A stretch of 64,000 nucleotides of DNA from a virus. The notes below the pieces were generated by a model. That model was not told the DNA's origin, searched no databases, and saw only the letters and a list, made by a program, of their open reading frames with translations. Of this stretch, positions 20,075 to 41,118 are shown piece after piece. A program made the position numbers and the translations under genes. The DNA lies in the IMG/VR virus record IMGVR_UViG_3300021957_000009, positions 37,047 to 101,046 of that record; one strand, 5' to 3'. Positions within the stretch are counted from its first letter, which is position 1. Each line of letters opens with the position of its first letter.

Positions 20075-20562
20075 TTAACACCTCTTAATTTTTTTATACC
20101 TTTCTCTACCTCTTTATATGCTGAATCTAATTCTTTTTTTGCTTGAGCGATCTTGGCTTTGTTTAATGCTTTTTCATCAGCAGAAATTTCACCCAGTCTT
20201 TTACGTTCAGCTTCAATTCTTGATCTTGCGTCAAACAAATCTTCTTTAGACATTCTCAATTGAGTTAATCTATCTGCCTTTTTTATAGCTTTAGCTCTTT
20301 TACGATCTGCTACCGCTTGCTTAGAAAAATATTGTTGTAGTCCTTTACCACCTTTAACCGCACCTTTAGCACCAAGCTTAGCTACTATAGATCCATATTT
20401 AAATAGACCTTTTGTTGCTTTAATGCCTTGATCAACTACAAAATTAAGTGCTGAATCTGCGGCACCTTCATTCATATCTAATTGCATATTAGCTTCATGC
20501 AATGGCATGTCACATATTTCTTCTAGTGTCTTGGCTTCTACGTGTTCAGCAAATGTTCTCAT
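20071..20562 (-). CDS. Putative internal head protein (CTS-like start)
   Basis: MRTFAEHVE|A; basic helical C-terminus. Confidence 0.65.
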   Translation of the reverse strand: MRTFAEHVEAKTLEEICDMPLHEANMQLDMNEGAADSALNFVVDQGIKATKGLFKYGSIVAKLGAKGAVKGGKGLQQYFSKQAVADRKRAKAIKKADRLTQLRMSKEDLFDARSRIEAERKRLGEISADEKALNKAKIAQAKKELDSAYKEVEKGIKKLRGVK

Positions 20563-21233
20563 TTTTGTCCTTTTATCCATTTTACAGCAATGGAATTTTC
20601 TGGGGCTTTAGCAGCCCAGGTTTTTATATCTTTATACGCTTCTAATGTTGAGGCTTCTATATCAGAACCTTTAGAATTATCAATAACAATCATGCGGTTA
20701 CGAAAAAGGCCTTGAAACTTACCTATATTCTTTTGTACATCTTTCCACATTTTTGTTACTAAACTATCTTCTAGAGAACGTGGTCTCATTCTGTTTCTTT
20801 CCAATGCTGTATCCAAATCAGTGTTAACAAATAACATATGTACAGCATAACCAAGTGTTCTTAACAGATCAACTTGCTTTTTAATTTTAGCATAATCTTT
20901 ACCAGTACCATCAACAACAATGCCCATTCTACCTTCTAAAGCTCTAGTCATAATTTTACCAGTTAGAACTTTCGCTTTCGCTCTTACTGCTTGGCCCTGT
21001 GCAGATGCAATGTCATCAGCATCAGTAGTTAATCCAGCCCTTTTTAATCCTTTTTCAAAAGCATCATCAGAGTTAATTAATCTAAATCCTAATGCTTGTA
21101 AGGCAGTTTTACCTACAACAAATGATTTACCAGAACCTGGTCCACCTGCTAGGAATACTGCTTTAAAAATAGAAGGATCATTTACACCTTCCATAAGTTC
21201 TAAATGTTCTTTAAAATTATCCACCGAATTCAT
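20559..21233 (-). CDS. P-loop kinase (zeta/AAA_33/PNK-like) with CTS-like start
   Basis: GGPGSGKS, NSDD, VVDGT, ALERNRMRPR lid. Confidence 0.8.
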   Translation of the reverse strand: MNSVDNFKEHLELMEGVNDPSIFKAVFLAGGPGSGKSFVVGKTALQALGFRLINSDDAFEKGLKRAGLTTDADDIASAQGQAVRAKAKVLTGKIMTRALEGRMGIVVDGTGKDYAKIKKQVDLLRTLGYAVHMLFVNTDLDTALERNRMRPRSLEDSLVTKMWKDVQKNIGKFQGLFRNRMIVIDNSKGSDIEASTLEAYKDIKTWAAKAPENSIAVKWIKGQK

Positions 21234-31443: not shown

Positions 31444-31714
31444 GATTTGTCGTTCCTTGTTCAATAATATGTGTTAATAAATCTCCGAGATAATTGTTAA
31501 AGTTCTCGTCGTTTCTCAATGTGTCGTGATCAAAATCACCTGGATCATTTATGTTATACGTAAATGATAATGTTGCAATATCAATTTCCGCTGATTCTTT
31601 AATAGATACAGTGCCGTAAATAAATCTCACACCATCATACGGCGAATTGTCGTTTAGATGAATTGCATAGAAATCTGATTCCGGATGTTCTACTGTAATA
31701 TAGTGATTATCCAT
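31397..31714 (-). CDS. Hypothetical protein in the gp40 position between uvsX and 41
   Basis: Synteny only. Confidence 0.6.
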   Translation of the reverse strand: MDNHYITVEHPESDFYAIHLNDNSPYDGVRFIYGTVSIKESAEIDIATLSFTYNINDPGDFDHDTLRNDENFNNYLGDLLTHIIEQGTTNLEKRNTDTRTESSTQ

Positions 31715-32762
31715 GCTCTTGCTCGATATCTAATTCAATGTCTAACAGTGGCTTATGACCAATTTGATAATGGCCTTTTAAGAACTCTTTAAAGTTTGTG
31801 CCATCAAATATTGGCTTCCAGAACTCTTCTTGTAAAGTATCTTTTTCTCTTACTTTAGGCTGAACCAATTCTCCGGTTTCCATATCAACTCTGCAATACC
31901 AACCTACATTTGGTTTTTGAACATAACCACCGGCTAATGCCACATCTAGTAATCCTGAATATGGAGCAATACCACCTTCCCAAGTTACTGTAATAGGAAT
32001 TTTAGATTTCTCTTTTACAAACCTTGATTTCTCAACGTTGATTACAAAGTTATAGCCTTTGACTTCCATTCCTTGCTTCTGTTGCTGTCTTCCTAAAATC
32101 CAGATGTTATCCGCAGAGTAATAAATACCTGTTCCGCCAGATACAATCGCTTTAGGGAATAAACCAATTTCTTGATATGTGTGATTAACAGCAAGTAAAG
32201 GAATATTCTTCATAGCCAGATAAGGAGTGACCATTCTGAATAGACCTTTAAGTGCTTTGGCTCTTGACATATCAGCAACTGATTTTTCATTTAGTGCGTC
32301 TTCTAATTCTTTCTTAGAAGCTAGGTTACCGATAGAATCGATTACAACAATAACTTTGTCGTTACGTTCAATGTTTTCTAGTTGACCTACTAAATCAAAT
32401 TTTAGTTGCTCTACGTCTGTAATCGGCGTGTGCAATACTCTATCAGTATTAATACCAAACGACTCGAAATATGATTGCGGTGAACCAAACTCTGAATCAT
32501 AAAATAGTAACACTGCATCTTCGTGTTCCTTTAAATATGCACCTGCCATTAATAAGGCAAATGATGTTTTAAAGTGTTTAGAAGGACCGGCTAAAACGGT
32601 TAAACCAGGACTTAATCCACCATCTGGATCTCCCGATAAAGCTACGTTTATCATTGGTACTTCTGTTGGTGTCATTTCTTTATCGCTAAAGAACACCGAT
32701 TTCGAAAGAACTGCTGAAGATTTAATCTTAGAGTTCTTTTTTAGTTTGTCCATTACTGACAT
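31707..32762 (-). CDS. uvsX: RecA-like recombinase UvsX
   Basis: AGPSKHFKT, FYDSEFG, DSIGNLAS, SGGTG. Confidence 0.95.
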   Translation of the reverse strand: MSVMDKLKKNSKIKSSAVLSKSVFFSDKEMTPTEVPMINVALSGDPDGGLSPGLTVLAGPSKHFKTSFALLMAGAYLKEHEDAVLLFYDSEFGSPQSYFESFGINTDRVLHTPITDVEQLKFDLVGQLENIERNDKVIVVIDSIGNLASKKELEDALNEKSVADMSRAKALKGLFRMVTPYLAMKNIPLLAVNHTYQEIGLFPKAIVSGGTGIYYSADNIWILGRQQQKQGMEVKGYNFVINVEKSRFVKEKSKIPITVTWEGGIAPYSGLLDVALAGGYVQKPNVGWYCRVDMETGELVQPKVREKDTLQEEFWKPIFDGTNFKEFLKGHYQIGHKPLLDIELDIEQEHG

Positions 32763-33040
32763 TATCTCTTTCTCCTACCGAATTGTGTTTGCTCTTGAGA
32801 CCTTAGTTGTCTCTTATGGCGCGCGATTGCTTCGGCCTTTTTGCGCTTACGTTTTGCTGTAGGTTTCTCATAGAATTCTTTAGCACGAACATCTTGTAAG
32901 ATACCCGCAGCTTCTACAGCCTTTTTGAATTTTCTTAATGCTACGTCAAAAGGCATATCTTGAGGCGGACGATTATCTCGGTTACCTTTCCGATTTTTGT
33001 TGAACTTTCTCGGTTGAGCTTTTAAATTTATACTTGGCAT
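32762..33040 (-). CDS. rpsU: Ribosomal protein bS21 homolog
   Basis: [29 protein letters not shown] matches E. coli-type S21. Confidence 0.9.
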
Positions 33041-33068: not shown

Positions 33069-33097
33069 ATTATAACATGAAATCAGTCAATTGTACA
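33069..33097 (-). promoter_or_regulatory. Early promoter TGTACA-N17-TATAAT (rpsU-uvsX-41)
   Basis: Exact motif inside the 3' end of the upstream gene. Confidence 0.75.
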
Positions 33098-34023
33098 CAG
33101 TTAATTCCCCAATTTTTGCGTCTATATGACTCAGGAGATAAGTGTACCGATGATGTGCTTTCCATATGGTCCTTTGCGTATGCTTCACTATTCATTGTGA
33201 GCCACTCTTCAGGATATTCAACCCTCTTCATACCAAGTTCATCCATGTTGGAAATCCATTGGTTTAAAGCGTTGATTCTTTCTTCGCGAGAACCCCAAAA
33301 TGGTTTATCTTTATAGTAACCAGTTTTTGGTAGTTTTCTCTCTTCGAATTCTATTGGCCATGGTGTTGAGTATTCTACTTTTATTCCTTTACGTTCTAAC
33401 TCGTCACCGTATTTTTTCCATTCTTTTAGCATAGGCATACTATCTGCATTCAATCTACAAATGTGATGTCTAATATCTATATTGCCAAATGACATTGTAA
33501 TTCCTTTCGGCATACATTCTAATATATGTTTAGTAACATATTCAAAGTCAGTTTTTATTTGCCCGTTAAGTGTTAGCCCATCAGTTTTTATCACCATTGA
33601 ACTGTCCTTAGAATATGCAGCAGTATGGGAATCGCCAATCGTCAACCAATGTAAATCTGCTATATCTGTAGATTTTAACGTTCTTGCAGTTGCGCACTTT
33701 TCCGATACTTTATCACACCAGTCTTTATCTAATACATCTTTACGTTTCTTGAGCATTGCGCCATAATCTGGCATATCGATATCTAGTGAATATACAAGCC
33801 TTGCTTCTAAGAAATTATTTATTCTTTTTTCGAGATCTTCAGTAAACCCACCAAATAAATTTAGTGATCCACCGAAATTGACACCGTGATCTAAATACAG
33901 AACGTCAACAACATCCGCTTCGTGATTAATACCTACATCTAGGTTTTCAGACCAAGTTCTGGCCCAACCGTATCCATGGCTATTTTTCTTTTTAGGTATT
34001 TTATTAAAAGTTCCTGTAATCAT
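33070..34023 (-). CDS. Putative DNA-modification protein: BGT-like N-domain plus SGNH-like C-domain
   Basis: DVLYL..SLNLFGG and VYSLDIDMP resemble T4 beta-glucosyltransferase N-domain; IGDSH, GNID, SSVHL resemble SGNH blocks. Confidence 0.5.
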
Positions 34024-34895
34024 AAATTCTTATCCCAATCTCTGTAACTATCAACTGTCTCGTATAGTGTTTCATCTGTTAATGTAGGCTCTGGTCCTAC
34101 ATTCCAGAATAATATATTTCTTCCCGTATTCTTCGGTATAAACTTCCATACTTTACCGTCATACGTGTCAATACAAGGAAATGGTGGAAGGTTTTCTGTT
34201 TTCTCAGAAGCAGTAAACGCCTTTGGCTCACTTATAACTTCTGCTCTACCCAGTTCTCCAGCTTTCATATTTCTCGATACTGCAACAGATGTAAACTTGG
34301 CATTAGGCCATGCTATTTGTAAAGCTCTCGTAAGAACTCCAGTTGATGTGGCCACATATACTTCGTCTGGCTCTCGAATTGCACTCGCAACTTTAACCAT
34401 ACCAGCAGTAACCATTTCATGTTTTAAACCTAGTGGTACAAAATAGTAACCAAGTTTTCTTGAATCTTCTAACGCTATTTTATTTAGGTTTGGCATTGCT
34501 GCTATTCTATGGAAGCTTACGTCAGCTCCTTGCTCTATACAACACGCTTGATGATGTGAAATCTTTTTACTAGATGGCATATACAATCTAACTTTTTTGT
34601 TATGTCTTTTAGCAGCATCTAAAATACTCACACCGGCTAAACCAGTTCGTGGTTGAACATACGCAATAGTATCTTCTTTAATTGTACTAATAAGACAATC
34701 GCCGCCTCTAGTTTTAGTACCGACAATCATATCATCTCGTATTACTCTAACACCTTCGTGCAATACTTCTACTGGAGATGGATTTGGATCTTCCCAATTC
34801 TTAGCCAAATCGAGGTAATATTCTTTTGCTTCATCAGGTTGCATTAACCCGATATCTTTATTAAATCCGTCTTCTATGTGTTTATTATGAGGCAT
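34020..34895 (-). CDS. Fold-type II PLP-dependent enzyme
   Basis: VIRDD..GTKTRG (PLP lysine), VATSTG, YDGKVW, LFWNVG. Confidence 0.8.
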   Translation of the reverse strand: MPHNKHIEDGFNKDIGLMQPDEAKEYYLDLAKNWEDPNPSPVEVLHEGVRVIRDDMIVGTKTRGGDCLISTIKEDTIAYVQPRTGLAGVSILDAAKRHNKKVRLYMPSSKKISHHQACCIEQGADVSFHRIAAMPNLNKIALEDSRKLGYYFVPLGLKHEMVTAGMVKVASAIREPDEVYVATSTGVLTRALQIAWPNAKFTSVAVSRNMKAGELGRAEVISEPKAFTASEKTENLPPFPCIDTYDGKVWKFIPKNTGRNILFWNVGPEPTLTDETLYETVDSYRDWDKNL

Positions 34896-36060
34896 TTCTT
34901 ATATTCTTATCCATAGCTGAGTGTAGTATCATTGCTTTGTAATCATCTACTGTTAAATTGTTACTGTCTAAAATTTTAAGATCAGACGGATGTGAAGTCA
35001 TTCCATTGAATGTTTCTACTAAACCAAGTTCTAGCATCGCTTTTTGTCTTCCACGTGGATGATCTTTAATATCGCTGCTAGACCATAAATTATCGTAATC
35101 TAAATGCGCATAATCATTACCAGGTCTTACGTAATTCTCAACCCATCTGATATAATCACAACATACATCTTCAGCATTATACGGAACACTACCCGTATCA
35201 TTATAAATTTCTAACATAACTTCATCTAGAAAATCTTGTTTTTTAAGTTTGTTGTCATTTTTTGCCAAGTAAGAAATACATTCTACAGCATTTGTACCAT
35301 AGTAAAACATGCTTTCTTTGTTGACATAGTGTGGAAACCAATCGGCAATGTCTGCAACAACTGCCGCATACTGAAACTTATATTGTCTTAATCCGTTCTT
35401 TACATTCCAACTTAACATAAATTCACCGACTTCTCTTAAGTCTTTTTTACCGGGAATTGCTAAGAAGTGTGATAGTTCTTTTGCTAAACGTGGAGCATAT
35501 TCACATAAGAAATAGTCTCCGCCTTTTTTGTAATCTGATGTAGGTTTTGGAAATGCTGGAAACTGGTATCCGATAGAAGTGTAAAATGGCTTTCCTAATT
35601 TACCTTCGGCCTTAATTATCTTCTTCATATCATCTATGCCTTCTGCTAGATGAAGTTTAAATAGTAATGTGTTGTGATATCCGGATGGTTTAGTTCCATA
35701 GTTAATAGCAGAACCTGTAACTCTATGCAGAATAAAAAGATATAACCAAGTTTCAAGTGAATGCGACTTACCAGTCCAGTTTTTAGCAACTAGTTCTCTT
35801 TGAGCAGTCGCTTCTCCAGCTTGCATTCTATCCCAATAAGGATGTTTATCAGTCCATCCGTAAAAGATGTCGTTAATAATCTGGGAAAACCCGGCGTACT
35901 TACGTTCAACTACATCGTATAGTTCTACGTTTTCCATTAGATCGTCATTCATATTGCTTTCAAGGTGCGGCATAAAGTTTGGCACATTGCATTTGATCTG
36001 CTGATCTTTTGCCAGTTTGAAGTACTTTAAAAAGTCATAATAATATTCAGTTTTTATCAT
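34885..36060 (-). CDS. Divergent aGPT-Pplase/amino-acid:DNA-transferase-like protein (HhH-glycosylase-like fold)
   Basis: YDVVERKYAGFSQ, FQYAAVVADI, YYGTNA, NAEDVCCDYIRW parallel the motifs of aGPT-Pplase1 proteins; adjacent to PLP enzyme. Confidence 0.55.
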   Translation of the reverse strand: MIKTEYYYDFLKYFKLAKDQQIKCNVPNFMPHLESNMNDDLMENVELYDVVERKYAGFSQIINDIFYGWTDKHPYWDRMQAGEATAQRELVAKNWTGKSHSLETWLYLFILHRVTGSAINYGTKPSGYHNTLLFKLHLAEGIDDMKKIIKAEGKLGKPFYTSIGYQFPAFPKPTSDYKKGGDYFLCEYAPRLAKELSHFLAIPGKKDLREVGEFMLSWNVKNGLRQYKFQYAAVVADIADWFPHYVNKESMFYYGTNAVECISYLAKNDNKLKKQDFLDEVMLEIYNDTGSVPYNAEDVCCDYIRWVENYVRPGNDYAHLDYDNLWSSSDIKDHPRGRQKAMLELGLVETFNGMTSHPSDLKILDSNNLTVDDYKAMILHSAMDKNIRNAS

Positions 36061-36803: not shown

Positions 36804-36880
36804 TGGCGCACCCTCCAGGATTCGAACCTGGGACCCACAGCTTAGAAGGCTGTTGCTCTATCCAGCTGAGCTAAGGGCGC
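36804..36880 (-). tRNA. tRNA-Arg(TCT) with encoded CCA
   Basis: GCGCCCTTAGCTCAGCTGGATAGAGCAACAGCCTTCTAAGCTGTGGGTCCCAGGTTCGAATCCTGGAGGGTGCGCCA cloverleaf. Confidence 0.97.
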
Positions 36881-36885
36881 AATTC

Positions 36886-37194
36886 TTATTGAGCTGGATC
36901 CTGTTGTTTCTTCCAGTCGTCAAAAGCTTTCCAGCTAGTATCAGCCGTAAGCGCATCGTGTTCTTTAAATTGTTCGGTTTTGATCATCTCTTCAAAGATG
37001 CTCCAAACTTTTTCCATTCGTAATTCAAATATATATTTTAATCCAAGCATTTGATTTTGTAATGTATCACAATCTTTAGGATTTAAAATTAAGTTATCTG
37101 TATTATGATATACGAGATCTAGATCTTCAGATGTTGCCCATGCATTCATGATCGCTTGCTCTAAGTCAAACCTGTCTTTTTTAAATGAAGTCAT
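36886..37194 (-). CDS. Hypothetical protein
   Basis: DRFDLEQAIM..W motif; GAGG RBS. Confidence 0.7.
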   Translation of the reverse strand: MTSFKKDRFDLEQAIMNAWATSEDLDLVYHNTDNLILNPKDCDTLQNQMLGLKYIFELRMEKVWSIFEEMIKTEQFKEHDALTADTSWKAFDDWKKQQDPAQ

Positions 37195-37642
37195 ATATTA
37201 CTTCAGCCTCTTCAAACATTTTTTTAGTTAATTGTGTAGATTCCACCCATCGTTCTGGCATAGAATCATCTATTTCTGTAGTTACTACTCTTTTGATACC
37301 GACTTGAATAATGCCCTTTGCGCATTCTGAACAAACTGGTAATCCGTGAATGTACATAGTAGCTCCGTCAAGTGATGTACCATTATACGTAGCATTATAT
37401 ATACAGTTCATTTCGGCATGAACTACATGTTGATACTTAACAACTTTGTTTTCATACATCGATTCTTGATCGTCGATTCCTCTAGGAAATCCGTTATAAC
37501 CTTGAGCTAGAACTTGTCCTTTTTCTCCAACAGCCACCGCACCAATCTTTCGTGACGGATCTTTTGACCATGTAGAAATATGTTCGGCTAAAGCTAAATA
37601 GCGTTTATCCCATTTATAAATTTTTGCAGTGTCCCAATTCAT
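37181..37642 (-). CDS. cd: dCMP deaminase
   Basis: GYNGFPRG, HAE, PVCSEC zinc motifs. Confidence 0.93.
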   Translation of the reverse strand: MNWDTAKIYKWDKRYLALAEHISTWSKDPSRKIGAVAVGEKGQVLAQGYNGFPRGIDDQESMYENKVVKYQHVVHAEMNCIYNATYNGTSLDGATMYIHGLPVCSECAKGIIQVGIKRVVTTEIDDSMPERWVESTQLTKKMFEEAEVIYDFI

Positions 37643-38307
37643 TACTTTACCAAATCAAAGTGACGTTCGTAAACGTGTAAATTTTGTACTTGCCAATAGA
37701 TCTCACCGTCGTTGACGCCTAAGTCATCTGCAAGTGAACATAATACATATTCTTGCCATGCGTAATCATTACGGTAACCAAAGATCACATCGTTAGATCG
37801 CATTTGAACTACACAATGCAATGCACCATCCCGAATATAGTATGTTACAGCATTTGTACAAATAAAATCATTTTTGCCTTGATCATTGTATTCTACCCAT
37901 ATCGAAGGACGTTGATAAATCATTGACGCTCTACGAGAATCTGGGTTACTAGTTAATTCAATTAGAACTTGGTCGTACTGAGCATGGTACTTTTCATTAA
38001 AAATAAGGTAACCATAATTAGAATTAATTTCACCATGATCATTGCCAGTCATTTTCCAGGCTGCAGGTGGACTTTTAGAATCAAAGTCGGTTCCATAAAT
38101 GTCATTAATGTTTGTAGACTGAGAATCATACCACGCAAGTTCAGCGTCAATATATTCTTGATTTGGAGTGCCAAATATAGCAGGCTCACTAGCATGAAAT
38201 GATGCACCAAGCAATTCAATAGTCTTACTACCGTTGCGGTCGATAACAAAGTTCTCTTCTGCAAGTTCCTGTTTGAAGTGCTCTCTAATTGCGTTTAAAT
38301 AAATCAT
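37642..38307 (-). CDS. 42: dCMP hydroxymethylase-like (gp42, thymidylate synthase fold)
   Basis: INSNYG, DFICTN, MRSNDVIFGYRNDYAWQ (Asp at cytosine-specificity position), LHVYERHF. Confidence 0.85.
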   Translation of the reverse strand: MIYLNAIREHFKQELAEENFVIDRNGSKTIELLGASFHASEPAIFGTPNQEYIDAELAWYDSQSTNINDIYGTDFDSKSPPAAWKMTGNDHGEINSNYGYLIFNEKYHAQYDQVLIELTSNPDSRRASMIYQRPSIWVEYNDQGKNDFICTNAVTYYIRDGALHCVVQMRSNDVIFGYRNDYAWQEYVLCSLADDLGVNDGEIYWQVQNLHVYERHFDLVK

Positions 38308-38609
38308 GATTTATACCTGTCGTCTAGTTCTGGATGTTCTTTACAATGCATCATTAAGATCATTAATTGTGTTGCAGCATGAGACAGATGAGTTTTACCA
38401 GATTCTGGATCTAGGTCTTCACCTGCATGCCATGCGTTAAGATGTCTTTGAATTGATGAATAAGTTCGTAGCTTACTGGTTGAATCGCCGTCATCACGCC
38501 AGTTGTTTACACCATACTTTTCAGCGCCGAAGCCAAAGACTTCTGCGATTTCTAATAATGCTTCTGGTGGTATTAAAGCTAATGGAGCTTTGCCTTCATC
38601 GAATTTCAT
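38304..38609 (-). CDS. dNTP diphosphohydrolase-like protein (DUF5664-type)
   Basis: KFDEGK..LIP..FGAEKY..NW..RHL..GEDLDPESG..HL.HA. Confidence 0.85.
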   Translation of the reverse strand: MKFDEGKAPLALIPPEALLEIAEVFGFGAEKYGVNNWRDDGDSTSKLRTYSSIQRHLNAWHAGEDLDPESGKTHLSHAATQLMILMMHCKEHPELDDRYKS

Positions 38610-38638: not shown

Positions 38639-38667
38639 ATTATAACACAAGTAACTTAGAATGTACA
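38639..38667 (-). promoter_or_regulatory. Early promoter TGTACA-N17-TATAAT heading the modification operon
   Basis: Exact motif. Confidence 0.8.
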
Positions 38668-39812: not shown

Positions 39813-40730
39813 CTATATATTATTTCGAAAGACAAAATCAATTGCTCTTTCTGCTTCTTTTACCATATCCCGTTTACCATACCATCCACCGGTGTCATTG
39901 TCCAAGTCTGAACAAATCCAGGCAATTTCTTTTGCTGAGATGGGATAACCTCTCTGCATTGCGTTGCCTGCGGTAGAAACCATAATTTTGTACATTTGTA
40001 AATACCAGCCAGAGCCAGTAATTTTTTTGTAATCTTCGATTTGCTTTTTGTTTACAAAAGGGCAGTCTTTATATCCTGTCCATGAAAAGTCAGTGTTGTT
40101 GAGTTTTTCCTGTCGATGTTGTATAAGACTCCTTTTAATAGAGTCTGGTAGCTTATCGAAAAACGATTCATTTGATACGACGTATCTGTGTCGTTCCATG
40201 AGTTCATTCGGATCCATGGTAATTCCATCGTGTGTGAATATGAAGTTGTACGACCCTTTGTATCTTGAAGGGACGTAGTACATTCTGCTAAGATCTTTTG
40301 TTTGAGCATCTGCGATGTCTCCTATTTCTTTATTAAGTGCGAACCAGAAATGTTTGATTTTATCGGCATCAACATATTGTGTCAATGGAAATACTAATCT
40401 AAACTTTGGATGCGCTTTAGTTGAGCTTGCTGTCGAATAGCAAACGTATTTGTATTTAGAATACTTCTCATGAATATCATCAATAGATCCTTCATAATCA
40501 TCGACATCGACAATGCCGAAACCACCCCAACTAATAACATTTGCATTAGCTCGAGTGGTTTCGGTCTTATATGTGGCCGGTGATATTAAAGGAGCATCAG
40601 CTTTTTTCTGATACTTATCACTATTGGCCAATTTGTATAATACTTTTTCAAAGTCATCAAACGAATTATAATCAACGCGCTTGACAGTTTTGTTATCGTA
40701 TATACTATCGAATATCGTTAAAGATACCAT
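39813..40730 (-). CDS. Archaeo-eukaryotic-type primase (AEP) with helical C-terminal domain
   Basis: hhDVD, YSTAS..PKFRLVFPL, D...KD.SRMYYVP motifs. Confidence 0.75.
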   Translation of the reverse strand: MVSLTIFDSIYDNKTVKRVDYNSFDDFEKVLYKLANSDKYQKKADAPLISPATYKTETTRANANVISWGGFGIVDVDDYEGSIDDIHEKYSKYKYVCYSTASSTKAHPKFRLVFPLTQYVDADKIKHFWFALNKEIGDIADAQTKDLSRMYYVPSRYKGSYNFIFTHDGITMDPNELMERHRYVVSNESFFDKLPDSIKRSLIQHRQEKLNNTDFSWTGYKDCPFVNKKQIEDYKKITGSGWYLQMYKIMVSTAGNAMQRGYPISAKEIAWICSDLDNDTGGWYGKRDMVKEAERAIDFVFRNNI

Positions 40731-41118
40731 GGTTACCTTCATGAGATGGAGCTTTCCAACCTTCAGGTTTCATGAGGTCTGGAAGTCCCAGTGGATTTGG
40801 TCGACCTTCTTTTACGCCAACATTTTTTGTCATATTAGCTTTAAGAACTTCATCCCAAGCTTTATACGCATCAACACCAAAAGCATCAAGCGTTCCGATT
40901 GCTACAACACATAGATCGATTAAACCATCAACGATTTCTTCACCATCCATTGTTTCGTACGCAGTTTTGGTTTCGTCTAGTTCTTCTTGTAAGAAGTCAA
41001 TACGAAACTTTAAAAACTTTTTAAGCTTTTCGGTATCTGTTTTATTATCGAATACCCAATCAAGAGTTCCGAATTTATCTTGCATCTTTTCGATGTCTTC
41101 TACCCAGTTTTGGCTCAT
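40705..41118 (-). CDS. MazG-like NTP pyrophosphohydrolase
   Basis: EELDE..EIVDGLID, ANMTK, KPEGW. Confidence 0.85.
   Translation of the reverse strand: MSQNWVEDIEKMQDKFGTLDWVFDNKTDTEKLKKFLKFRIDFLQEELDETKTAYETMDGEEIVDGLIDLCVVAIGTLDAFGVDAYKAWDEVLKANMTKNVGVKEGRPNPLGLPDLMKPEGWKAPSHEGNHGIFNDIR

What the first reader, a model, noticed from the sequence alone, without database searches (positions are those of the whole stretch)
33070..34023. Apparent chimera: glucosyltransferase-like DNA-engaging domain fused to an SGNH domain
Seen: the N-terminal ~120 aa contain [20 protein letters not shown] and VYSLDIDMP, recalling T4 beta-glucosyltransferase DRLIVVNSSINFFGG and YYLFTDIRLP. The remainder has GDSH, GNID and SSVHL, like SGNH blocks I, III and V. 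Known: some SGNH proteins are O-acyltransferases. Inference: the sugar-donor domain has been replaced by an acyltransferase/esterase acting on a flipped base. It could acylate the final modification, or activate the hydroxymethyl group in place of the kinase missing from the operon.
Basis: inference. Interest (0 to 1): 0.82.

Follow-up and report, generated by a model that had tools for sequence, protein, structure and literature searches.

The report
Glucosyltransferase-like SGNH enzyme modifying phage DNA
This phage gene joins the DNA-gripping half of T4's glucose-adding enzyme to an esterase/acyltransferase-type catalytic half, and it always travels with the other genes of a kinase-free pathway that probably turns hydroxymethylcytosine in phage DNA into a modification not yet described chemically.

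Summary
ORF 33070-34023 (-) encodes a 317-aa, two-domain protein. Residues 1-~120 are homologous to the N-terminal (acceptor/DNA) domain of T4 beta-glucosyltransferase: profile-profile probability 94%, E 1e-7, and BGT is the top structural hit of 48,161 chains. Residues ~120-307 have an SGNH fold (Z 11.6) with invariant Ser132 and His294.

It is not a one-off chimera. It is an old, widespread viral family: 374 clusters at 50% identity and over 590 IMG/VR loci. The gene sits in T4's beta-gt slot between gene 42 and uvsX.

In 29 of 29 related loci with enough flank it lies next to a protein of the HMUDK_hel superfamily. In Aeromonas phages 44RR2.8t, 31 and 25 it is fused to that partner. A PLP enzyme homologous to M6 gp52 usually accompanies it. 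No P-loop kinase was found in the clusters.

Best reading: it binds flipped 5-hmC and esterifies (acylates) the hydroxymethyl group, doing the job of the missing 5-hm-base DNA kinase. The chemistry is inferred, not shown. The block-III Asn is Ile and three Arg are invariant, so the donor is uncertain.

This scan noted the same cassette earlier on other genomes. The BGT homology and the Aeromonas fusion are shown here.

The parts
33070..34023 (-). Target gene: 317-aa two-domain protein (BGT-N-like domain plus SGNH-fold domain). Member of PHROG 13881.
   Evidence: ORF. No Pfam family. phrog_13881 matched over the full length, E 3e-57. AF2 model pLDDT 94.9, pTM 0.90.
33664..34023 (-). N-terminal domain (aa 1-~120), homologous to the N-terminal acceptor/DNA domain of T4 beta-glucosyltransferase.
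   Evidence: hhalign A1 vs BGT family A3: probability 94.3%, E 1e-7, 98 columns. VIA-align top hit 1c3j_A, Z 5.7 over 99 residues. PF09198 weak in 2 of 71 members.
33847..33861 (-). N-L-F-G-G motif (aa 55-59), aligned with BGT N70-F-F-G73-G74.
   Evidence: N55 in 70 of 71 and G59 in 68 of 71 sequences. N70, G73 and G74 are invariant in the BGT family. Alignment.
33103..33663 (-). C-terminal SGNH-fold domain (aa ~121-307), with a basic, conserved insertion loop at aa 220-249 (E.E.RKxPKTG.YK..PF.GS...R).
   Evidence: Foldseek 4s1p E 1.5e-4. VIA-align Z 11.6 over 163 residues, top 50 hits nearly all SGNH. Conservation.
33625..33636 (-). G130-D-S132-H133: SGNH block I with the putative nucleophile Ser132. 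All four positions are invariant or nearly so.
   Evidence: G130, S132 and H133 in 71 of 71 sequences; D131 in 68 of 71. The motif follows strand 126-130 in the model.
33142..33144 (-). His294 (S-V-H-L/I), the putative block-V catalytic His.
   Evidence: 71 of 71 sequences. It lies near the end of the structurally aligned SGNH core.
34020..34895 (-). PLP-dependent fold-type-II enzyme (291 aa). Its stop overlaps the target's start (ATGA).
   Evidence: PALP E 7.5e-5. phrog_7093 E 1.9e-34. Family profile vs M6 gp52 PLP decarboxylase: hhalign 96.8%, E 3e-10. Overlap seen.
34885..36060 (-). Partner gene (391 aa) of the HMUDK_hel / aGPT-Pplase-like superfamily, with conserved E297-D298-x-x-C301.
   Evidence: Atlas neighbours carry PF18723. 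Divergent orthologous neighbours pass the PF18723 cut-off. hhalign 99.9% to the C-terminal half of Aeromonas phage ORF233c. Conservation.
37642..38307 (-). gp42-type dCMP hydroxymethylase (221 aa).
   Evidence: PF00303. 55% identical to T4 gp42, with the same MRSNDV.FG.RNDYAWQ motif.
37181..37642 (-). dCMP deaminase.
   Evidence: PF00383 E 3.5e-20.
38304..38609 (-). Small all-alpha dNTP pyrophosphohydrolase (PF18909). First gene of the unit and a candidate dCTPase.
   Evidence: PF18909 E 1.6e-30. The dCTPase role is an inference.
38639..38667 (-). Promoter-like site (TGTACA-17-TATAAT with TG) heading the unit. An identical site at 33069-33097 follows the target gene.
   Evidence: The two best matches, 10 of 12. 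These are consensus matches only.
31707..32762 (-). uvsX: synteny anchor. The T4 order is 42, b-gt, segA, uvsX, 40, 41.
   Evidence: ORF. T4 map. Conserved next to the target in 58 of 80 loci.

Best explanation
The gene encodes a DNA-base-modifying enzyme of a kinase-free 5-hydroxymethylcytosine (5-hmC) hypermodification pathway.

Shown here:
- The N-domain is homologous to the acceptor/DNA domain of T4 beta-glucosyltransferase.
- The C-domain has an SGNH fold with invariant Ser132 and His294.
- The gene occupies the beta-gt slot downstream of a T4-type dCMP hydroxymethylase.
- It is always next to, or fused with, an HMUDK_hel-superfamily protein, usually together with an M6-gp52-like PLP enzyme.

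Inferred mechanism:
- The N-domain binds phage DNA and presents a flipped-out 5-hmC in the interdomain cleft.
- The SGNH domain takes an acyl (or comparable) group onto Ser132 and passes it to the 5-CH2OH. The resulting ester serves as a leaving group.
- The enzyme thereby plays the part that the P-loop 5-hmdU DNA kinase plays in thymidine hypermodification.
- The HMUDK_hel-like partner (conserved Cys301) then replaces the ester with an amino acid or another nucleophile.
- The PLP enzyme tailors the appended group, probably by decarboxylation.
For: Domains and catalytic residues:
- BGT homology of the N-domain.
- SGNH fold of the C-domain.
- S132, H133, D183, R185, R229, R249 and H294 are each present in 71 of 71 diverse sequences. 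This indicates an active enzyme, not a degenerate binding module.

Link to 5-hmC:
- Same genomic slot as T4 b-gt.
- The window's gene 42 homologue is 55% identical to T4 gp42 and has the same specificity motif.
- All 39 full-length gp42-like genes in related loci carry RSND...G...D.

Link to the partner:
- A partner gene lies within 3.5 kb in 29 of 29 loci with enough flank. Gene order is shuffled between loci, so the linkage is not inherited synteny alone.
- Minimal clusters are gp42-(cd)-target-partner-uvsX.
- Rosetta-stone fusion: Aeromonas phage 44RR2.8t ORF233c (795 aa) is target plus partner. hhalign gives 99.9%, E 1e-34; BLAST gives E 1e-18. Another fusion form is FkbM MTase + HMUDK_hel + target.

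No kinase in the pathway:
- No Walker-A gene was found in the clusters.
- The window's only candidate P-loop kinase (20559-21233) also occurs in Melnitz and HTVC008M phages, which lack both the target and the partner.

Parallel with thymidine hypermodification:
- The PLP family is homologous to M6 gp52, the PLP decarboxylase of that pathway (function from PMC8989533).
- Thymidine hypermodification clusters consist of a kinase, aGPT-Pplase genes (often a paralogous pair) and a PLP enzyme (PMC8989533). Here 25 loci also carry a second, weakly related paralogue of the partner.
Against: - No biochemical data exist and the acyl donor is unknown.
- The SGNH active site is atypical. Ile182 replaces the oxyanion Asn, the DxxH Asp is absent, and three invariant Arg plus H133/H187 point to an anionic, possibly phosphate-bearing, ligand. 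Such a site could fit chemistry other than acyl transfer.
- D81, the counterpart of the BGT catalytic base D100, is present in only 53 of 71 sequences.
- The partner family could not be aligned with the proven amino-acid:DNA transferase M6 gp51. Its transferase role is therefore itself inferred.
- PLP-less clusters carry NDP-sugar enzymes, which leaves room for a sugar-related reaction.
- The virus record is only about 56% complete by CheckV's estimate, so a DNA kinase could lie outside it.
Confidence: 0.45

Rival explanations
1. Late tailoring enzyme. The protein recognises the already modified base through its BGT-like domain. It then acylates the appended group, or removes an ester-linked protecting or carrier group. 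Activation of hmC is done by something else: a kinase encoded elsewhere, or the HMUDK_hel-like protein together with a host factor.
For: - SGNH enzymes are typically esterases or O-acyltransferases (fold hits).
- The gene is often last in the operon.
- A P-loop AAA_33/Zeta-type kinase exists at 20559-21233.
- The virus record is incomplete.
- An acetyltransferase tailoring step is known in PaMx11 (PMC8989533).
Against: - Minimal clusters hold only the target plus the partner, so there is no earlier activating step.
- The target is as constant as the partner, whereas tailoring genes (PLP, NDP-sugar enzymes, the 320-aa paralogue) vary.
- The P-loop kinase is also present in phages that lack the cassette.
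- Fusion to the partner fits consecutive core steps better than a late tailoring role.
Confidence: 0.2
2. Direct group transferase in the manner of BGT. The SGNH-fold domain has been recruited to bind a nucleotide-activated or phosphate-bearing donor (NDP-sugar, ATP or similar). The enzyme puts that group (a sugar, phosphate or nucleotidyl group) directly on the hmC hydroxyl, and that group is either the final modification or a phosphate-type leaving group.
For: - Invariant R185, R229 and R249 with H133/H187, and loss of the oxyanion Asn.
- PLP-less clusters carry a UDP-glucose/GDP-mannose dehydrogenase, NAD-dependent epimerases/dehydratases and an inositol-1-phosphate-synthase-like gene beside the target.
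- A sodium:solute symporter lies next to the fused gene in 44RR2.8t.
- The gene is descended from, and positioned like, a glucosyltransferase.
Against: - To my knowledge, no SGNH-fold enzyme is known to catalyse glycosyl or phosphoryl transfer.
- No GT-B C-domain or P-loop signal was found.
- The Ser-His pair is invariant, as in acyl-enzyme chemistry.
- Most clusters carry a PLP enzyme of the M6 gp52 type, which points to an amino-acid-derived adduct.
Confidence: 0.2
3. Ordinary esterase/lipase or auxiliary metabolic enzyme unrelated to DNA. The BGT resemblance would be a generic Rossmann-like similarity.
For: - The structural Z of the N-domain is modest (5.7) and Foldseek found no significant match for it.
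- There is no Pfam family for the protein.
Against: - Profile-profile E of 1e-7, with the BGT-invariant N..GG motif conserved. The same profile scored at most 3% probability against the M6 proteins and TesA.
- Fixed position in the b-gt slot.
- Strict linkage and fusion with an HMUDK_hel-superfamily protein.
- The family is exclusively viral in the Atlas rows.
Confidence: 0.04

Closest known systems
T4 beta-glucosyltransferase (BGT; Pfam PF09198; PDB 1c3j and related entries)
   Same: The N-terminal alpha/beta domain is homologous: hhalign 94%, E 1e-7, and BGT is the top structural hit. It includes the BGT-invariant N70..G73-G74 motif and the D100 position. The gene sits in the same place, between gene 42 and uvsX. 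The presumed substrate is the same, 5-hmC in duplex phage DNA.
   Different: The UDP-glucose-binding GT-B C-domain is absent and an SGNH-fold domain stands in its place. The counterpart of the catalytic base D100 is only 75% conserved. The protein always works beside an HMUDK_hel-like partner, which BGT does not have.
SGNH/GDSL hydrolases and O-acyltransferases (e.g. E. coli TesA 1ivn, PatB 7tjb, OatA-C 6vjp, putative SGNH hydrolase 4s1p)
   Same: The fold matches (Z 8-11.6 over 135-170 residues). A GDS motif with the Ser follows strand 1. A Gly-x-Thr follows strand 2. A G-x-x-D follows strand 3. A His lies near the C-terminus, followed by an 'HLSPxxY'-type stretch.
   Different: The block-III oxyanion Asn is Ile. 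The DxxH Asp is missing. Extra invariant residues are H133, R185, H187, R229 and R249. There is a 25-residue basic loop insertion. The protein is cytoplasmic, fused to a DNA-enzyme domain, and in a nucleic-acid context. Sequence similarity to Pfam SGNH models is below threshold.
5-hmdU DNA kinase (5-HMUDK) of the thymidine hypermodification pathways of phages M6, ViI, PaMx11, PhiW-14 and SP10
   Same: It holds the proposed role in the pathway, activating the 5-hydroxymethyl group in DNA for substitution. It partners with a domain or protein of the HMUDK_hel superfamily. It co-occurs with an M6-gp52-type PLP enzyme and, in many loci, with a paralogous pair of helical proteins.
   Different: It has no P-loop, no Walker A motif and no kinase fold. 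The base is cytosine (T4 gp42-type hydroxymethylase), not uracil. Activation would be by esterification, not phosphorylation. It is a functional analogue only, not a family member.
Aeromonas phage 44RR2.8t ORF233c and phage 31 PHG31ORF233c (uncharacterised, 795 aa)
   Same: Residues 1-333 are a full-length homologue of the target (31% identity, E 6e-23 for 44RR2.8t). Residues ~410-750 are homologous to the window's 391-aa partner. These phages also encode gene 42.
   Different: The two proteins are fused into one chain. The gene lies between motA and asiA beside a sodium:solute symporter, not in the gene 42-uvsX slot. No PLP gene is adjacent.

Membership tests
T4 beta-glucosyltransferase family (PF09198) / GT-B DNA glucosyltransferases | N-terminal Rossmann-like acceptor domain with the family-invariant N70, G73-G74, T99-D100 | tested here: met
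   hhalign A1 vs A3: 94.3%, E 1e-7, target 1-96 to BGT 1-118. VIA top hit 1c3j_A, Z 5.7. N55 in 70 of 71, G59 in 68 of 71 and D81 in 53 of 71 sequences. BGT invariants.
T4 beta-glucosyltransferase family (PF09198) / GT-B DNA glucosyltransferases | C-terminal Rossmann-like UDP-glucose-binding domain (second half of the GT-B fold) | tested here: not met
   The profile alignment stops at residue 96. The region 120-307 matches SGNH structures at Z up to 11.6. PF09198 is not reached by the window protein.
T4 beta-glucosyltransferase family (PF09198) / GT-B DNA glucosyltransferases | Glucosyl transfer from UDP-glucose to 5-hmC in DNA with base flipping | not testable with these tools
   Needs an enzyme assay or a co-crystal structure.
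SGNH/GDSL hydrolase superfamily | Three-layer alpha/beta/alpha SGNH fold | tested here: met
   Foldseek 4s1p E 1.5e-4, prob 1.0. VIA Z 11.6, rmsd 3.5, 163 residues; 52 chains with Z>=8, and the rows shown are nearly all SGNH.
SGNH/GDSL hydrolase superfamily | Block I GDS with nucleophilic Ser | tested here: met
   G130-D131-S132 directly after strand 126-130. S132 in 71 of 71 sequences. Aligned with the TesA GDSL motif.
SGNH/GDSL hydrolase superfamily | Block II Gly (oxyanion hole) | tested here: inconclusive
   G149 (63 of 71) followed by T151 (67 of 71) after strand 142-146 fits the GxSGxT pattern. No residue-level structural superposition was available.
SGNH/GDSL hydrolase superfamily | Block III Asn (GxND, oxyanion hole) | tested here: not met
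   G180-x-I182-D183. The Asn position is Ile in 65 of 71 and Val in 6 of 71 sequences. hhalign places I182 on the TesA block-III Asn, although that alignment is not significant overall.
SGNH/GDSL hydrolase superfamily | Block V DxxH (catalytic His with Asp) | tested here: inconclusive
   H294 is in 71 of 71 sequences and lies in S-V-H-[IL] near the end of the aligned core. The Asp three residues upstream is absent. Near-invariant E288 could substitute for it. The geometry was not inspected.
5-hmdU DNA kinase (5-HMUDK) | P-loop kinase domain with Walker A | tested here: not met
   No Walker A motif in the target (one search lists every Walker-A ORF in the window). No kinase Pfam hit. hhalign vs M6 gp54 gives 0.4%.
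5-hmdU DNA kinase (5-HMUDK) | Association with an HMUDK_hel domain and with aGPT-Pplase/PLP genes | tested here: met
   Partner present in 29 of 29 loci. PF18723 above cut-off in the L035 and L052 partners. Fusions. PLP family homologous to M6 gp52.

The most novel reading that the evidence does not exclude
This would be the first SGNH-fold enzyme that acts on a nucleobase in DNA. It O-acylates flipped-out 5-hmC to make 5-acyloxymethylcytosine. That product is a kinase-free, ATP-independent activated intermediate, which an HMUDK_hel-type partner converts into amino-acid- or amine-bearing cytosines. The system would be a widespread, chemically undescribed class of cytosine hypermodification in marine T4-like phages. 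It would also be the long-sought hm-dC modification of Aeromonas phages 44RR2.8t, 31 and 25.
Probability: 0.35. Interest if true: 0.9.

Novelty: new variant of a known kind. Interest (0 to 1): 0.78.

Why it matters
Known hypermodifications at hydroxymethyl-pyrimidines follow one of two routes. One is direct glycosylation of hmC, as in T4. The other is phosphorylation of hmU by a P-loop DNA kinase followed by substitution, as in M6, ViI and PhiW-14.

This family suggests a third route. A glucosyltransferase-derived DNA module is coupled to an esterase/acyltransferase-type catalytic domain. It acts on cytosine, needs no kinase, and is very common in marine T4-like phages (over 590 IMG/VR loci).

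The finding also gives a concrete candidate, in cultivable phages, for a question left open in 2010 (PMC2993671): what modifies the hm-dC of Aeromonas phages 44RR, 31 and 25, which have genes 42 and 56 but no glucosyltransferase?

A new DNA modification would matter for three things. It bears on phage-host defence (type IV restriction, CRISPR). It affects sequencing of environmental viral DNA. It could also supply enzymes for site-specific labelling of 5-hmC.

Tried and rejected
Searches that found nothing useful:
- Pfam and NCBIfam on the target gave no family.
- phmmer and the family profile against PDB sequences gave nothing relevant.
- Foldseek of the N-domain against the PDB gave no significant match, only flavodoxin-like rows at E of about 0.1.
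- BFVD returned only family members.
- hhalign of the family against a TesA alignment was not significant (3%, E 0.015). It served only to place blocks I and III.

Partner protein:
- BLASTP of the 391-aa partner against the fused proteins was uninformative until profiles were used.
- The partner family did not align with M6 gp51 (AADT), gp54 (kinase) or gp55. I therefore describe it as HMUDK_hel-superfamily, not as a proven amino-acid:DNA transferase.
- PF18723 was not found in the window's own record at E<=1.

Complex prediction of the target with the partner returned 'no answer' (score 0.00). It is not used as evidence either way.

Tools and papers not available:
Neighbourhoods were taken from the search for related loci instead.
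- Iyer et al. 2013 (PMC3763556), which defined HMUDK and aGPT-Pplase, is not held. I could not check whether it mentions this family.
- Literature searches for SGNH plus hypermodification, for Aeromonas phage hm-dC modification, and for AADT plus hmC found no description of this family.

Considered and rejected:
- The P-loop AAA_33/Zeta-type kinase at 20559-21233 as the pathway's DNA kinase. Its homologues occur in Melnitz and HTVC008M phages, which lack the cassette.
- The TS homologue as a 5-hydroxy-dCMP synthase of the RB69 type. It keeps Asp at the ThyA-169 position, whereas those enzymes have Asn (PMC13326640).

I could not inspect model coordinates. The claim that the Ser-His site faces the interdomain cleft is therefore untested.
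Full report
**1. What is there**

The window comes from a 101-kb IMG/VR virus record that CheckV estimates to be about 56% complete. It is a T4-like phage with about 36% GC.

ORF 33070-34023 on the minus strand encodes 317 aa. Its ATG overlaps the stop codon of the upstream gene in an ATGA. Its 3' end carries one of the two best sigma-70-like sites of the region. The other such site lies upstream of 38609, so 38609-33070 looks like one transcription unit (consensus matches only).

**2. The family**

The window protein has no Pfam or NCBIfam family and no sequence relative in the PDB. It matches PHROG 13881 (function unknown) over its full length, and the first 334 positions of the 795-position phrog_17781.

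An exhaustive HMMER search finds 374 clusters (50% identity) at E<=1e-3, and most of them cover residues 2-309. A pattern scan of IMG/VR finds more than 590 loci. In the Atlas the neighbouring clusters are essentially all viral.

The two-domain protein is therefore an old, widespread viral family. It is not a recent chimera or an assembly artefact.

In a 71-sequence alignment (A1) the invariant residues are G130, S132, H133, D183, R185, R229, R249 and H294. Near-invariant residues include S15, H16, G47, N55, G59, R94, D131, T151, L152, G180, I182, H187, E225, E288 and Y300.

**3. N-terminal domain**

The full-length AlphaFold model is confident (pLDDT 94.9, pTM 0.90), and so is the N-domain folded alone (pLDDT 94.7).

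- Foldseek finds nothing significant for the N-domain.
- An all-against-all structural search of 48,161 PDB representatives puts T4 beta-glucosyltransferase 1c3j_A first (Z 5.7, rmsd 3.4 A, 99 residues). It is the only chain with Z>=5. T4 alpha-glucosyltransferase is at rank 9.
- On its own a Z of 5.7 would be weak. Sequence profiles agree independently. A1 against a 27-member BGT family alignment gives hhalign probability 94.3%, E 1e-7 over 98 columns, from the first strand (MITGTFN / MKIAIIN) to residue 96.
- As a rough control, the same A1 profile scores at most 3% against TesA and four M6 proteins.
- The only invariant residues of the BGT N-domain are N70, G73, G74, T99 and D100. They align with N55 (70 of 71), G58/G59 (57 and 68 of 71) and D81 (53 of 71).
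- Two family members also touch Pfam PF09198 weakly.

From established knowledge of BGT (recalled, not tested here): the N-domain carries most of the DNA contacts, and D100 is the proposed general base for the hmC hydroxyl.

**4. C-terminal domain**

Residues ~120-307 match SGNH hydrolases and acyltransferases. Foldseek gives 4s1p at E 1.5e-4. VIA-align gives Z 11.6 over 163 residues. There are 52 chains with Z>=8, and the rows shown are almost all SGNH, including the O-acetyltransferases PatB, OatA and OafB. A few family members reach weak Pfam SGNH/GDSL hits.

| SGNH block | In this family | Conservation |
|---|---|---|
| I (GDS, Ser nucleophile) | G130-D-S132, directly after the first strand | S132 invariant |
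| II (Gly) | Plausibly G149-x-T151 | 63 and 67 of 71 |
| III (GxND, oxyanion Asn) | G180-x-I182-D183; the Asn position is Ile/Val | Ile 65, Val 6 of 71 |
| V (DxxH) | S-V-H294, without the DxxH Asp | H294 invariant |

Beyond the canonical set, H133, R185, H187, R229 and R249 are invariant or nearly so. A basic 25-residue loop (aa 220-249) is inserted. This is an SGNH-fold enzyme with a preserved Ser-His pair but a remodelled, cationic active site.

**5. Genomic context**

The T4 gene order is 42, b-gt, segA, uvsX, 40, 41. The window's order, as sources, is:
- dNTPase
- gp42-like hydroxymethylase
- dCMP deaminase
- tRNA-Arg
- small ORFs
- the 391-aa protein
- the PLP enzyme
- the target
- S21
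- uvsX
- a 105-aa ORF
- gp41

The target therefore sits in the beta-gt slot.

The gp42-like protein is 55% identical to T4 gp42 and shares the MRSNDV.FG.RNDYAWQ motif. It has Asp at the ThyA-177 position (cytosine specificity). It also has Asp at ThyA-169, where RB69-type 5-hydroxy-dCMP synthases have Asn (PMC13326640). All 39 full-length gp42-like genes in related loci have the same signature. The inferred substrate is 5-hmC DNA.

**6. The constant partner**

In 80 related IMG/VR loci the target co-occurs with homologues of several genes:

| Gene | Loci (of 80) |
|---|---|
| 391-aa protein (partner) | 58 |
| PLP enzyme | 55 |
| uvsX | 58 |
| gp42 | 41 |

Many of these loci are short. Among the 29 loci with at least 3.5 kb on both sides, 29 have the 391-aa family within 3.5 kb. 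The one apparent exception among shorter loci, L052, has a divergent partner that passes the Pfam HMUDK_hel cut-off (42.7 bits), as does the L035 partner (36 bits).

Gene order varies between loci: partner-PLP-target, target-PLP-partner, target-partner, and partner-320aa-PLP-target. This argues for functional linkage. Minimal clusters are gp42-(cd)-target-partner-uvsX.

The Atlas places the 391-aa protein among clusters that carry HMUDK_hel and ADDT. Its family conserves E297-D298-x-x-C301. It does not align with the proven glycine:DNA transferase M6 gp51, so its transferase role is an inference.

In 25 loci an extra ~320-aa gene is a weak paralogue of the partner (hhalign 57%, with an EDKTC motif). 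This recalls the 'paralogous pair' of aGPT-Pplase genes in thymidine clusters (PMC8989533).

The PLP family is homologous to M6 gp52 (hhalign 96.8%, E 3e-10). M6 gp52 is the PLP-dependent decarboxylase of thymidine hypermodification (PMC8989533).

**7. Fusions**

Aeromonas phage 44RR2.8t ORF233c (795 aa, identical to P0261) consists of the target family (residues 1-333) followed by the partner family. hhalign gives 99.9%, E 1e-34, and plain BLAST with the L052 partner gives E 1e-18. The same protein occurs in phages 31 and 25 and their relatives, and in Stenotrophomonas phage IME13.

Another metagenomic protein is FkbM methyltransferase + HMUDK_hel + target.

44RR2.8t encodes a gp42 homologue that is 52% identical to the window's. 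Petrov et al. 2010 (PMC2993671) noted that 44RR, 31 and 25 have genes 42 and 56 but no glucosyltransferase, and that their hm-dC modification is unknown.

**8. No kinase**

No ORF in the clusters carries a Walker A motif apart from gp41. The window has one AAA_33/Zeta-type P-loop kinase 12 kb away, at 20559-21233. Its homologues are in Methylophilales phage Melnitz and Pelagibacter phage HTVC008M. Those phages have neither the target nor the partner. The kinase is therefore not specific to this pathway.

**9. Interpretation**

Shown:
- the domain homologies;
- conservation of a Ser-His site;
- the position of the gene in the beta-gt slot;
- strict linkage and fusion with an HMUDK_hel-superfamily protein;
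- the link to a T4-type dCMP hydroxymethylase and to an M6-gp52-type PLP enzyme;
- the absence of a kinase in the clusters.

Inferred: in canonical systems the core is a P-loop kinase (often fused to HMUDK_hel) plus aGPT-Pplase, and the tailoring enzymes vary. Here the core is the target plus the helical partner, and the tailoring genes vary. Those variable genes are the PLP enzyme, the 320-aa paralogue, NDP-sugar epimerase/dehydratase or dehydrogenase genes, and permeases.

The simplest reading is that the target replaces the kinase. Its BGT-like domain would present flipped 5-hmC, and the SGNH domain would esterify the hydroxymethyl group through an acyl-Ser132 intermediate. That makes a leaving group for the partner.

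The cationic, Asn-less active site and the sugar-nucleotide genes in some clusters keep other readings alive: another donor (phosphate- or nucleotide-bearing), or a late tailoring role. I put about 0.45 on activation by esterification, 0.2 on late tailoring, 0.2 on direct transfer from an anionic donor, and little on a role unrelated to DNA.

**10. Novelty**

I found no description of this family in the literature I could search. The 2013 paper that defined HMUDK and aGPT-Pplase was not readable.

Earlier notes of this scan had already flagged the same kinase-free hmC cassette on other genomes, and had left the N-terminal domain of the SGNH-like protein unassigned.
- the N-terminal domain is homologous to the BGT acceptor domain;
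- the protein is fused to its partner in cultivable Aeromonas phages;
- the PLP enzyme belongs to the M6 gp52 family.

The pathway logic (hydroxymethyl-pyrimidine, activation, substitution, tailoring) is a known kind. The activating enzyme and the target base would be new.

Noticed in passing
window 32762-33040 (-): Phage-encoded ribosomal protein bS21 (PF01165, E 2e-17) directly downstream of the target, heading the uvsX-gp41 block. It is present in only 16 of the 80 related loci.
   Followed up: partly
window 36804-36880 (-): tRNA-Arg (anticodon TCT) inside the modification operon, between dCMP deaminase and the small ORFs. It shows about 91% nucleotide identity to a tRNA-Arg of Proteus phage Stubb.
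   Followed up: no
window 20559-21233 (-): AAA_33/Zeta-toxin-type P-loop kinase (224 aa) with homologues in Methylophilales phage Melnitz, Pelagibacter phage HTVC008M, Agrobacterium phage Atu_ph07 and 8 of the related loci. Its role is unknown; a dNMP or polynucleotide kinase is possible. It is not linked to the cassette.
   Followed up: partly
L046:1819-3210 and the same gene in L069: A phage-encoded NCS1 permease for cytosine/purines/uracil/thiamine/allantoin (PF02133, E 3e-82) sits between gene 42 and dCMP deaminase, next to the target. In 44RR2.8t a sodium:solute symporter (ORF234c) is immediately upstream of the fused gene. These transporters may import the group that is attached to the DNA.
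   Followed up: no
L043:5299-6210, L044:9343-10233, L035:4748-5506, L052:38-1090: Clusters that lack the PLP gene carry instead an NAD-dependent epimerase/dehydratase, a UDP-glucose/GDP-mannose dehydrogenase or an inositol-1-phosphate-synthase-like gene next to the target and partner. This suggests different payloads in different phages.
   Followed up: partly
L013:330-1295 and 24 other loci: A ~320-aa protein family with no Pfam match lies between the partner and PLP genes. It is weakly related to the partner family (hhalign 57%, E 1e-4) and has an EDKTCFFYKH motif. It is probably a second, paralogous helical transferase-like protein.
   Followed up: partly
L086 (Erythrobacter phage vB_EliS_R6L gp1; also phage ZS04 and Microcystis phage Mae-JY30): Homologues of the window's PLP enzyme (31% identity, E 6e-32) lie inside large proteins annotated as DNA modification methylases. 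The PLP family is thus fused to a DNA methyltransferase-type protein in unrelated phages.
   Followed up: no
window 38304-38609 (-): A 101-aa PF18909 'dATP/dGTP diphosphohydrolase N-terminal' protein overlaps the start of the gp42-like gene. In this context it may act as the dCTPase (the T4 gp56 role). This was not tested.
   Followed up: no
window 39813-40742 (-): A 309-aa protein is conserved upstream of gene 42 in 26 of the 80 related loci. I did not examine it.
   Followed up: no
L037:10001-10952: In one related contig the target gene is split into 193-aa and 120-aa ORFs. This is either a frameshift or a sequencing error in that record.
   Followed up: no
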